Made by a program: the position numbers and the translations under genes. A stretch of DNA of 42,956 bases from a virus. Below the pieces are notes generated by a model, which saw only the letters and a list, made by a program, of their open reading frames with translations, was not told where the DNA came from and did no database searches. Where the stretch lies: IMG/VR virus record IMGVR_UViG_3300045988_080709. One strand, given 5' to 3'. Positions 21,282-21,937 of the stretch are shown here, piece by piece. Positions within the stretch are counted from its first letter, which is position 1. Every line of letters starts with the position of its first letter.

Positions 21282-21617
21282 ATGAGAGTTAATATACTTG
21301 GGACTAAATACAGAATAATTATAGCCACAAATGAGGAAAAACCTAAGCTGAATGAATGCGACGGTTATATAGACCAAACTATAAAAGAGATAGTGGTCGG
21401 TAAATTCGAGAAATGCCATATGAGTGTGGAGGACCTTCAAACCCACACAAAGAATGTAATGCGGCATGAAATCATACATGCATTCTTGTACGAAAGTGGA
21501 CTATGGACGAATAGCGGGAATGTAGAGAATTGGGGGCAATCTGAGGAAATCACCGACTGGATTGCTCTTCAGTTCCCAAAGATGCTGAAAGTATTCCAGG
21601 AAGCGAAATGTATTTAG
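21282..21617 (+). CDS. Small HExxH zinc metallopeptidase-like protein (111 aa)
   Basis: ATG 21282 follows GGAGG. Motif VMRHEIIHAFLYESG. Track ORF 21270-21617. Confidence 0.75.
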   Translation: MRVNILGTKYRIIIATNEEKPKLNECDGYIDQTIKEIVVGKFEKCHMSVEDLQTHTKNVMRHEIIHAFLYESGLWTNSGNVENWGQSEEITDWIALQFPKMLKVFQEAKCI

Positions 21618-21642
21618 TAGATTAACTGGAAAATCTATCCAT

Positions 21643-21671
21643 TTGACACTATGAAACATATGTTCTATAAT
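21643..21671 (+). promoter_or_regulatory. Perfect TTGACA-17-TATAAT promoter with a Cheo/LexA-box-like palindrome in the spacer
   Basis: TTGACActatgAAACATATGTTCTATAAT. The segment 21654-21665 (AAACATATGTTC) is 11/12 to GAAC-ATAT-GTTC. Confidence 0.7.
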
Positions 21672-21703
21672 TAGCATAAGAACAAATGTTTGGAGATGAT
21701 AAA

Positions 21704-21937
21704 ATGAATACCGGACCAACAAAAAGGCAGATGGATGTATATAACTTCATTGTCGATTATATAACCAAGAATATGTATTCCCCGTCTGTGAGGGATATAT
21801 GCAAGGCAATAGGGATTAGCTCCACATCAACAGTATGGAAGCATTTAGAGGCGTTAAAGCGTTGGGGACTGATTGATTATAAGCCAGCACAGACGAGGAG
21901 TATAGTATTAAAGGGCTATAAACTGGTAAAAGAGTAA
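21704..21937 (+). CDS. LexA-like winged-helix DNA-binding domain only (77 aa, no S24 peptidase domain)
   Basis: ATG 21704 follows [61 protein letters not shown] matches the LexA N-terminal pattern. The protein ends 20 aa later. Confidence 0.8.
   Translation: [77 protein letters not shown]

What the first reader, a model, noticed from the sequence alone, without database searches (positions are those of the whole stretch)
21282..21937. Sensor-less LexA paralog next to a small HExxH peptidase, driven by a perfect promoter with an SOS (Cheo) box in its spacer
CDS 21704-21937 (77 aa) carries the LexA N-terminal winged-helix pattern (...[32 protein letters not shown]...). It stops right after that domain, so there is no Ala-Gly cleavage site and no S24 Ser/Lys domain. 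Its promoter is a perfect TTGACA-17-TATAAT (21643-21671). The spacer holds AAACATATGTTC (21654-21665), 11/12 to the Firmicutes LexA-box core GAAC-N4-GTTC (idealised CGAACATATGTTCG), and it abuts the -10. Directly upstream (21282-21617) is a 111-aa HEIIH zinc-peptidase-like protein. That gives a peptidase plus wHTH pair in the style of ImmA/ImmR or CapP/CapH, but built on a LexA DNA-binding domain. The pair sits between the late activator and terS, not in the lysogeny module, which already has its own ImmA/ImmR pair. A second promoter with the same operator geometry lies at 4131-4159 (separate finding), so this looks like a small phage regulon. Hypotheses: (a) host LexA represses both promoters, making them SOS-inducible. 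(b) The uncleavable LexA-DBD paralog occupies the same boxes (autoregulation, or re-silencing of SOS genes after host LexA is cleaved). (c) The neighbouring metallopeptidase supplies in trans the cleavage function that the S24 domain normally supplies in cis.
Basis: partly seen in the sequence, partly recalled or inferred. Interest (0 to 1): 0.8.

Follow-up and report, generated by a model that had tools for sequence, protein, structure and literature searches.

The report
SOS-gated phage gene for uncleavable LexA domain
A Blautia phage carries a self-contained gene for just the DNA-binding half of the bacterial DNA-damage repressor LexA, switched by LexA's own operator sites; the small zinc-peptidase-like gene beside it is a frequent but dispensable neighbour, not a demonstrated partner.

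Summary
ORF 21704-21937 is a 77-aa LexA DNA-binding domain with no cleavage or S24 part. It sits behind a perfect TTGACA-17-TATAAT promoter. There are two (21654-65 and 21680-91), and an intrinsic terminator (21936-57) closes a one-gene cassette.

A weight matrix built from 79 chromosomal lexA promoters ranks these two boxes and the two at the sister promoter (4131-4159, minus strand) as the four best sites in the window. In relatives the half-sites stay fixed while the surrounding bases drift. Host-LexA repression is therefore well supported in silico.

The protein keeps the canonical LexA recognition helix, unlike GIL01 gp6. Among stand-alone relatives, a canonical helix goes with boxes at the gene's own promoter. 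So binding its own boxes is plausible.

The peptidase-partner idea is not supported. The HExxH protein is a mini-zincin with no M78 or CapP match. Its large family lives in packaging modules (0/80 loci have a LexA domain nearby). The cassette also occurs without it (7/18 close contexts).

The constant feature is position: between the sigma-like late activator and terS. Stand-alone LexA domains are common in phages. This is a new variant of a known kind, and its function is untested.

The parts
21643..21671 (+). Consensus sigma-A promoter, TTGACA-17-TATAAT, of the LexA-DBD cassette
   Evidence: The only 12/12 match in 15-25 kb. One of 3 perfect promoters in the window against 0.01 expected. The -35 and -10 are invariant in about 10 promoter variants.
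21654..21665 (.). SOS (Cheo) box 1, AAACATATGTTC, filling the 3' end of the spacer and abutting the -10
   Evidence: 15.9 bits with the lexA-operator matrix. It is a perfect GAACATATGTTC in L006 and L007. The same placement is kept in 39-49% identical relatives L174, L187 and L236.
21680..21691 (.).
   Evidence: 16.7 bits. This is the commonest variant upstream of chromosomal lexA genes. The half-sites are conserved while the 8-9 nt between the -10 and the box vary.
21704..21937 (+). Gene for a 77-aa stand-alone LexA DNA-binding domain (three helices plus wing, then an 8-residue GYKLVKE tail)
   Evidence: Pfam PF01726 at 66 bits. TIGR00498 positions 5-69 of 203. PDB sequence hits. AF2 model and fold search. 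The tail motif GYK[LF]VK is shared by many stand-alone relatives.
21936..21965 (+). Intrinsic terminator (9-bp stem, UUCG loop, UUUUAUAUU) that closes the cassette 21 nt before the terS start codon
   Evidence: The hairpin is kept with different stem sequences in L005, L174, L187 and L210.
4131..4159 (-). Sister consensus promoter with box GAATATACGTTC (4138-4149) abutting the -10
   Evidence: (15.4 bits). Identical in L368.
4107..4118 (.). Second SOS box of the sister locus, downstream of its -10
   Evidence: The best site in the window, 18.4 bits.
3603..4081 (-). Cargo of the sister promoter: a 61-aa ORF (4081-3896) and a 78-aa acidic protein (3839-3603). Neither matches any family.
   Evidence: Conserved in L368-L370.
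21282..21617 (+). Neighbouring 111-aa HExxH mini-zincin gene (phrog_1233). It is a frequent neighbour, and I do not count it as part of the system.
20385..20837 (+). Sigma70_r4-like late transcriptional regulator (LtrA type, phrog_36). It marks the upstream edge of the slot the cassette occupies.
   Evidence: Family description in PMC3753634.
21986..22792 (+). Terminase small subunit gene. It marks the downstream edge of the slot.
   Evidence: phrog_1889 at E 1.8e-68.

Best explanation
The region holds an autonomous one-gene cassette of the 'moron' type: its own promoter, one gene, its own terminator. The gene encodes a LexA DNA-binding domain that cannot be cleaved.

Proposed mechanism:
- In the lysogen, host LexA sits on the two SOS boxes. 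One fills the spacer up to the -10 and the other lies just downstream. Together they keep an otherwise consensus-strength promoter shut.
- DNA damage destroys host LexA, so this promoter and its twin at 4131-4159 fire.
- The 77-aa product keeps the canonical LexA recognition helix. It most likely binds the same GAAC-N4-GTTC sites. That would shut its own promoter again (as lexA does) and act as a RecA-insensitive stand-in for LexA at the phage's boxes and possibly the host's. The result would be a pulse, or damping, of SOS-controlled expression.

Shown: domain identity, cassette anatomy, operator match and conservation, and independence from the HExxH gene.
Inferred: binding by either protein, repression, and the physiological outcome.

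The HExxH gene is a packaging-module gene that shares the same genomic slot.
For: - Domain identity.
- Cassette anatomy (promoter, two boxes, RBS, gene, terminator) is kept in all close relatives. It has four kinds of left junction and at least five kinds of terminase gene on the right.
- Operator match: 68 of 79 chromosomal lexA genes of Clostridia and Lachnospiraceae carry 1-3 such boxes upstream. The matrix consensus is ACGAACATATGTTCGT, and the four best sites in the window are the two pairs at the two perfect promoters. Blautia lexA promoters use the same GAAT and GTTT half-site variants.
- Footprint: the half-sites are invariant, while the N4 centres, the 5' spacer and the stretch between the -10 and box 2 vary.
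- The same design is kept in 39-49% identical proteins L174, L187 and L236.
- Recognition helix: window STSTVWKHL, Blautia LexA STSSVHSHL, B. subtilis SSSTVHGHL, GIL01 gp6 SHKTAHRYL.
- Across stand-alone lineages, counted once per distinct helix motif: canonical helix with boxes 8 and without 2; diverged helix with boxes 2 and without 20; Fisher p = 1.6e-4.
- The composite promoter also drives unrelated phage genes (only 2 of 81 matches drive a LexA-DBD gene). Locus A keeps its boxes on a contig with no LexA-DBD hit. Both fit host LexA as the primary repressor.
Against: - No binding or expression data exist for either protein.
- An isolated LexA N-terminal domain binds DNA weakly in E. coli (my own knowledge). 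Dimerisation of the 77-aa protein is not shown, and its tail is modelled at lower confidence (pLDDT 74).
- Positions equivalent to E. coli residues 44/45 differ from host LexA (W-K against H-S), so specificity could have shifted.
- The helix/box association could reflect recent joint capture of a lexA promoter together with its 5' coding part. The helix classification was made post hoc, and the lineages are not independent.
- The three Blautia lexA loci have only degenerate boxes.
- The strictly conserved position just before terS is not explained by a pure LexA-mimic role.
Confidence: 0.5

Rival explanations
1. The protein is a gp6-like regulator of the late (packaging) operon. It would act on the late promoter or the terS region, as activator, co-regulator or gate, with its own synthesis timed by host LexA. 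It would not be a general LexA mimic.
For: - GIL01 gp6 is a truncated LexA homologue that activates the late promoter P3, which also carries tandem LexA boxes (PMC6182141).
- The gene always lies immediately 5' of the terminase genes, although terS belongs to at least five different types.
- The order phrog_36 Ltr gene, then LexA-DBD, then terS recurs in distant relatives L174, L236, L178 and L192. This is the slot where late regulators sit (PMC3753634).
Against: - A LtrA-type activator is already present.
- A conserved terminator insulates the gene from terS.
- No second LexA-like or gp6-type palindrome lies near terS. The single window match to the gp6 site is at chance level and is elsewhere.
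- gp6's key residue Lys38 corresponds to Ser here, and overall identity is only 30%.
- Bacillus-type boxed relatives (the L215 and L189 class) sit after a replication-type gene, not before terS.
Confidence: 0.2
2. The HExxH protein and the LexA-DBD protein form a protease/repressor pair of the ImmA/ImmR or CapP/CapH type, with the peptidase cleaving the wHTH protein in trans.
For: The two genes are adjacent, 87 nt apart, in 11 of 18 determinable contexts of the close family, across three HExxH subtypes. The HExxH and ESG motifs are invariant in the family. Weak fold resemblance to IrrE/PprI.
Against: - No M78, ImmA or CapP match. The true ImmA of this phage is at 6512-6952.
- 0 of 80 HExxH loci have a LexA domain nearby, and only 0-1 of 74 distant LexA-DBD loci have an HExxH gene.
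- The cassette persists without the gene, including one deletion remnant in L005.
- Histories are discordant: HExxH about 50% identical next to a 99-100% identical cassette.
- The HExxH family's constant association is with terL and the portal gene.
- The 77-aa protein has no linker or C-terminal domain to cleave.
Confidence: 0.04
3. The boxes serve host LexA only. The protein has a different target or role, for example an accessory DNA-binding factor for packaging, or a decayed, non-functional lexA fragment.
For: The position next to terS is conserved. Many LexA-boxed consensus promoters drive unrelated cargo. Large stand-alone classes have diverged helices and no boxes.
Against: - The protein is under clear purifying selection. 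There are 20 cluster representatives at 78-99% identity, with relatives down to 39% that keep the fold motifs and the tail.
- The helix/box association argues for use of the boxes.
- Nothing links LexA domains to pac or cos recognition.
Confidence: 0.15

Closest known systems
GIL01 gp6 (Bacillus thuringiensis tectivirus), a phage-encoded truncated LexA homologue (PMC6182141)
   Same: A stand-alone LexA winged-helix domain encoded by a temperate Firmicutes phage. Its synthesis is ultimately gated by host LexA, and it operates alongside tandem LexA boxes. BLASTP E 3e-7.
   Different: - Only 30% identical.
- gp6 has a diverged recognition helix (SHKTAHRYL, with key residue Lys38), binds GaCACAnnTGTGaC at -43.5 and activates the late promoter.
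- gp6 is encoded inside the early operon, without its own boxed promoter or terminator.
- The window's protein keeps the canonical helix, has Ser at the Lys38 position, and the window has no gp6-type site near it.
Cellular LexA (Firmicutes DinR type) and its autoregulated lexA promoter
   Same: The same DNA-binding fold and recognition-helix core. The same operator (GAAC-N4-GTTC, in several copies) is placed over the gene's own promoter.
   Different: No Ala-Gly site and no S24 Ser/Lys domain, so RecA* cannot inactivate it, and the dimerisation domain is absent. It is 34% identical to the Blautia LexA DBD. An extra GYK[LF]VK tail is present.
LexA-controlled phage genes (coliphage 186 tum, Gifsy antirepressors, CTXphi rstA, GIL01 P1/P3). 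Only the GIL01 case was checked in a paper here; the rest is from my own knowledge.
   Same: Host LexA boxes placed over a phage promoter, so that a phage function fires on DNA damage.
   Different: Here one of the controlled products is itself a LexA domain. The other (locus A) has unknown function.
ImmA/ImmR and CapP/CapH protease/repressor pairs
   Same: A small HExxH protein lies next to a small wHTH protein.
   Different: The peptidase is not M78 or CapP by any profile. The wHTH is LexA-type rather than XRE-type and has no cleavable extension. The pairing is not conserved.
Morons (promoter-gene-terminator insertions at phage module boundaries), a concept from my own knowledge
   Same: Own promoter, one gene and own terminator, placed between the early and late modules with variable neighbours. 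In relatives, other cargo (TIR_2, DUF7352, tRNAs) occupies the same zone.
   Different: The position is unusually strict: it is always the last unit before terS.

Membership tests
LexA repressor (TIGR00498 equivalog) | N-terminal LexA-type winged helix-turn-helix domain | tested here: met
   PF01726 at 66.4 bits against a cutoff of 23.7. All 9 PDB sequence hits are LexA. All nine fold matches at E<=0.001 are LexA N-terminal domains, TM 0.74-0.85.
LexA repressor (TIGR00498 equivalog) | Ala-Gly cleavage site and C-terminal S24 peptidase domain with the Ser/Lys dyad | tested here: not met
   The protein ends at residue 77. It matches model positions 5-69 of 203 only, scoring 61.8 bits against a cutoff of 110.95.
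LexA repressor (TIGR00498 equivalog) | Binds the SOS box and represses SOS genes | not testable with these tools
   Inferred only, from the canonical recognition helix and from boxes at its own promoter.
gp6-like phage truncated LexA activators | Stand-alone LexA DNA-binding domain encoded by a phage | tested here: met
   77 aa, DBD only. BLASTP to gp6: 30% identity, E 3e-7.
gp6-like phage truncated LexA activators | Recognition-helix Lys38 and the GaCACAnnTGTGaC site at the late promoter | tested here: not met
   Ser lies at the aligned position. The only window match to the site (1 mismatch, at 10178) is at chance level: 1 found, 1.16 expected.
gp6-like phage truncated LexA activators | Activates late transcription | not testable with these tools
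   The position before terS is compatible. A terminator separates the gene from terS.
ImmA/ImmR or CapP/CapH pair | Peptidase_M78 (ImmA/IrrE/CapP) domain in the HExxH partner | tested here: not met
   No M78 hit in Pfam, only sub-threshold BSP and M13 matches. No NCBIfam hit. No capP hit in PADLOC, whereas the lysogeny-module ImmA scores 39 bits. No fold hit at E<=1e-3.
ImmA/ImmR or CapP/CapH pair | Conserved co-occurrence of the two genes | tested here: not met
   0 of 80 HExxH loci. 0-1 of 74 distant LexA-DBD loci. 11 of 18 close contexts, but with three HExxH subtypes and one deletion remnant.
Late transcriptional regulators (Ltr superfamily, PMC3753634) | [quoted passage not shown] | tested here: met
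Late transcriptional regulators (Ltr superfamily, PMC3753634) | Basic protein of about 130 aa with the shared Ltr C-terminal domain (RinA, ArpU, sigma70_r4, DUF1492 or LtrC types) | tested here: not met
   The protein is 77 aa and LexA wHTH only. The sigma70_r4-type Ltr is the separate gene at 20385-20837.
Moron | Own promoter, one gene and own terminator, inserted between conserved phage genes with variable flanks | tested here: met

The most novel reading that the evidence does not exclude
Canonical-helix stand-alone LexA domains form a recurrent phage device: an uncleavable LexA switched on by the destruction of host LexA. It then re-imposes LexA-type repression on phage and host SOS boxes, giving an SOS pulse and shut-off. 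Its placement as the last unit before terS could also gate entry of transcription into the packaging operon according to SOS status.
Probability: 0.3. Interest if true: 0.7.

Novelty: new variant of a known kind. Interest (0 to 1): 0.5.

Why it matters
If the protein does occupy SOS boxes, temperate gut-Firmicutes phages would carry a RecA-proof substitute for the host's master DNA-damage repressor, and it would be induced exactly when the host's own repressor is destroyed.

That would change how SOS-controlled functions behave in lysogens. These include mutagenic repair, other prophages, and SOS-induced toxins or defence systems. It would also add a second mode of action (mimicry) to the one studied example of a phage LexA homologue, gp6, which is an activator with altered specificity.

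The survey also shows that stand-alone LexA domains are a large, mostly unstudied class of phage regulators with a preferred slot between the late activator and terS. The two conserved boxed promoters are ready-made, testable SOS reporters for Blautia, a genus with little regulatory genetics.

Tried and rejected
- Counting GAAC-N4-GTTC with up to 1 mismatch showed no enrichment. I replaced it with a matrix built from real lexA operators.
- The Rfam gathering scan of the window returned nothing, not even the tRNA. The e-value scan recovered the tRNA at 47.9 bits and nothing else credible.
- The fold search with the HExxH model gave no match at E<=1e-3, so no specific peptidase family can be assigned.
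- The 30-sequence alignment of stand-alone domains was too diverse for the locus scan. A 9-sequence subset worked.
- I suspected the conserved 50-nt element at 21220-21269 was the Ltr-dependent late promoter. The alignment showed it is an invariant hairpin with a T-run that flanks tRNA genes in relatives, so I dropped that idea. The late promoter remains unlocated.
- A search for Ltr-type direct repeats or a second palindrome between 20800 and 22050 found nothing convincing. The gp6-type operator is absent.
- My first synteny estimate (HExxH upstream in 3 of 6 loci) was too low for the close family. Assembly contexts raised it to 11 of 18.
- GIL01 gp1 was a lead from memory as a second LexA-like protein. 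The record annotates it as MerR-family, and the paper describes a different wHTH filament former, so I dropped it.
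Full report
**What is there**

The window is a temperate siphophage genome of a Blautia-type host. The 77-aa protein's nearest database entry is named from Blautia caccae. The only annotated phage with DNA similarity is Blautia phage Montmirail.

The region of the finding lies between a sigma70_r4-like regulator (20385-20837, phrog_36) and the terminase small subunit gene (21986-22792, phrog_1889). In order, it holds:
- a tRNA-Thr gene (21042-21115);
- a structured element of about 100 nt, followed by a hairpin with a T-run;
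- the 111-aa HExxH gene (21282-21617);
- the 77-aa gene (21704-21937).

Both ORFs, the HEIIH motif, the exact TTGACA-17-TATAAT promoter at 21643-21671, and AAACATATGTTC at 21654-21665 are as described.

**The 77-aa protein**

It is a LexA DNA-binding domain and nothing more:
- Pfam LexA_DNA_bind at 66 bits, covering nearly the whole profile.
- It matches the NCBIfam lexA equivalog over positions 5-69 of 203 only.
- All nine PDB sequence hits are LexA.
- A confident model (pLDDT 92.9) shows three helices and a wing. All nine fold matches at E<=0.001 are LexA N-terminal domains, TM 0.74-0.85.

This architecture is not rare. An exhaustive search found 6075 relatives. The best 150 cluster representatives are mostly 64-100 aa stand-alone domains, with some tandem double-domain proteins. 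Full-length LexA appears only at around 1e-9 to 1e-11. Many of the short proteins share a C-terminal GYK[LF]VK tail that cellular LexA lacks. Three PHROG families match.

**The regulatory anatomy is richer than reported**

- There is a second box, GAACAAATGTTT (21680-21691), between the -10 and the RBS.
- A hairpin with a UUCG loop and a U-tract starts at the stop codon (21936-21957).
- The unit is therefore promoter, two operators, RBS, one gene and a terminator.
- The sister locus is on the minus strand. It has TTGACA (4159-4154), a 17-nt spacer and TATAAT (4136-4131). Box GAATATACGTTC abuts the -10, and a second box (4107-4118) lies downstream. It leads into two small ORFs with no family match.
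- The window has three perfect consensus promoters against 0.01 expected. The third is the early promoter at the repressor/Cro switch and has no box.

**Are the boxes real SOS operators?**

I fetched 80 chromosomal lexA loci from Clostridia and Lachnospiraceae.
- 68 of the 79 with enough upstream sequence have one to three GAAC-N4-GTTC sites (up to 1 mismatch) within 250 nt upstream. Chance would give about 0.1 per locus. GAACAnnTGTTT is the commonest variant.
- The three Blautia loci carry more degenerate versions: CGAATATCTGTTTG, AAACAAAAGTTT and GAACATAAGAAC.
- A matrix built from these sites has the consensus ACGAACATATGTTCGT.
- Its four best hits in the 43-kb window are exactly the two pairs of boxes at the two promoters (18.4, 16.7, 15.9 and 15.4 bits). 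The fifth-best site scores 10.2. Shuffles give 0.14 sites at the level of the fourth.

Conservation supports function:
- Across about ten promoter variants from 19 related loci, the -35, both half-sites of both boxes, the -10 and the RBS are invariant.
- The N4 centres, the 5' part of the spacer, and the 8-9 nt between the -10 and box 2 vary freely. Several variants carry the perfect palindrome GAACATATGTTC.
- The same layout is kept in proteins only 39-49% identical (L174, L187, L236). L236 has both boxes.

Host-LexA control of both promoters is therefore well supported, although only in silico.

The composite promoter (Cheo box fused to a consensus -10) is common in viral contigs, with at least 120 stretches. 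It mostly drives unrelated genes: only 2 of 81 matches drive a LexA-DBD gene. Locus A is kept with identical boxes on a 42-kb contig that gave no LexA-domain hit. Both points mark host LexA as the primary repressor.

**Does the phage protein use the same boxes?**

- Its recognition helix is STSTVWKHL. Blautia LexA has STSSVHSHL and B. subtilis LexA has SSSTVHGHL.
- GIL01 gp6, which binds a different palindrome, has SHKTAHRYL. Its essential Lys38 aligns with Ser here (PMC6182141).
- Among stand-alone relatives, I counted once per distinct helix motif. A canonical helix goes with strong boxes at the gene's own promoter in 8 cases and without in 2. A diverged helix goes with boxes in 2 cases and without in 20 (Fisher p = 1.6e-4).
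- The large 90-92 aa class, with helices such as SVAFYM or TVASYL, has no boxes.

This fits autoregulation. It could also reflect joint capture of a lexA promoter together with its 5' coding part. The classification was post hoc, and the lineages are not independent.

**The HExxH neighbour**

- It is a confident mini-zincin model (pLDDT 93.2) with invariant HExxH and ESG/W motifs.
- It has no M78, ImmA or CapP match. Fold similarity to jannalysin, abylysin, selecase and IrrE is only weak.
- Its family is large: more than 650 proteins and 556 IMG/VR stretches.
- In the 80 best loci it sits inside packaging modules. It often overlaps terL by 9 nt or lies between terL and the portal gene. None has a LexA domain within 3.5 kb.
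- Going the other way, 0-1 of 74 distant LexA-domain loci has an HExxH gene nearby.

Within the close family the picture is different, and I had to revise my first estimate.
- Adjacent (11 contexts): the window, L002, L006 and 8 of 8 determinable assembly contexts of the identical protein (L372-L379). The HExxH gene ends 87 nt upstream in each of those eight.
- Those HExxH genes fall into three subtypes only about 50% identical to each other, next to a 99-100% identical cassette. Homology between phages starts inside the last 60-90 nt of the HExxH gene.
- Not adjacent (7 contexts): the cassette follows a tRNA 3' end (L003, L004, L007), the hairpin element (L381-L383), or a clean deletion that leaves only the RBS and the last five codons of the HExxH gene (L005).

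I read the adjacency as two elements sharing one slot, plus recombination through the conserved 3' end of the HExxH gene. I do not read it as a functional pair.

**The constant feature is position**

- In every context the cassette is the last unit before the terminase genes. Those genes belong to at least five types: Terminase_5/phrog_1889, Terminase_2, an HTH_Tnp_1-like terS with Terminase_6N, an 84-aa ORF followed by a 547-aa terminase, and PF10668.
- Distant relatives repeat the order phrog_36 regulator, then LexA domain, then terS (L174, L236, L178, L192).
- The phrog_36 protein corresponds to the sigma70_r4 (LtrA) class of late activators, which act upstream of terS (PMC3753634).
- In relatives the zone between ltr and terS also holds tRNAs, TIR_2 and DUF7352 genes, and other cargo. 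So it is a hotspot for accessory modules.
- The position still keeps the gp6-like rival alive: a LexA-family protein that regulates late genes.

Arguments against that rival:
- The terminator between the gene and terS is conserved, with different stem sequences in L005, L174, L187 and L210.
- No other operator-like site lies near terS.
- A dedicated Ltr gene is present.
- Bacillus-type boxed relatives are placed elsewhere.

How late transcription passes the several hairpins between ltr and terS is unexplained.

**Verdict**

The LexA-domain and SOS-operator parts of the interpretation hold. The peptidase-partner part does not.

The most likely mechanism is a host-LexA-repressed, self-limiting cassette that makes an uncleavable LexA surrogate (confidence about 0.5). 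The main rival is a gp6-like late-gene role (about 0.2).

Given gp6, the PHROG families and the abundance of stand-alone LexA domains, this is a new variant of a known kind, not a new category. It is worth an experiment because binding, inducibility and the effect on the host SOS response are all directly testable.

Noticed in passing
window 21116-21262: A segment of about 100 nt directly after tRNA-Thr folds into a cloverleaf-like four-way junction. It is followed by an invariant hairpin with a T-run (GCGTCTGGTCAG-ATAA-CTGGCTGGGCGC-TTTT). The whole stretch folds at -63.7 kcal/mol, z-score -3.95. The hairpin element recurs beside tRNA genes in L001, L002, L004 and L006. No Rfam family matches it. 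It may be a degenerate tRNA or a tRNA-linked mobile element.
   Followed up: partly
window 21042-21115: tRNA-Thr (anticodon TGT) lies between the late activator gene and the packaging genes. The Rfam gathering-threshold scan of the whole window missed it, but the e-value scan scored it at 47.9 bits against a cutoff of 29. A degenerate copy of its T-arm and acceptor end lies at 20922-20955.
   Followed up: partly
window 21282-21617, and loci L008-L087: The 111-aa HExxH mini-zincin family (phrog_1233, more than 650 proteins) is embedded in the packaging modules of Lachnospiraceae phages. It often overlaps the terL start by 9 nt or lies between terL and the portal gene. Its function is unknown, and no PDB fold match reaches E<=1e-3.
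   Followed up: partly
window 3838-3868 (minus strand): Upstream of the 78-aa locus A gene, a hairpin (CACCTCCGATATTAAACTTAATTCGGAGGTG) pairs an anti-Shine-Dalgarno sequence with the gene's own GGAGGTG RBS. This suggests translational control of the SOS-induced cargo. It is conserved in L368.
   Followed up: no
window 4255-4325: Between locus A and the integrase gene there is what looks like the 3' part of a tRNA (T-arm GGGGTTCGAATCCCC plus an acceptor end). ARAGORN did not call it. It is probably the attP core, which would mean integration into a tRNA gene.
   Followed up: no
window 7427-7455: A third perfect TTGACA-17-TATAAT promoter, at the divergent repressor/Cro switch. It has no SOS box. 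All three consensus promoters of this phage sit where a repressor is expected.
   Followed up: no
window 9152-9712: An early-region ORF of 186 aa made largely of pentapeptide repeats ([18 protein letters not shown]...).
   Followed up: no
proteins P0142, P0151 and others: Proteins of 150-190 aa that consist of two LexA DNA-binding domains in tandem. These would be single-chain 'dimers' that bypass the missing dimerisation domain.
   Followed up: no
loci L248-L327: The same promoter with a Cheo box fused to the -10 drives a conserved 36-45 aa ORF (MEEKRQKLCDMIARITNEKL...) in one lineage of about 55-kb phages. It accounts for 56 of the 68 promoter matches that have a callable ORF.
   Followed up: no
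L374 1380-2448, L375 417-1485, L004 3832-5771: In relatives, the zone between the late activator and the LexA cassette carries candidate defence cargo. L374 and L375 have a TIR_2 protein and DUF7352. L004 has a 393-aa protein followed by two small ORFs.
   Followed up: no
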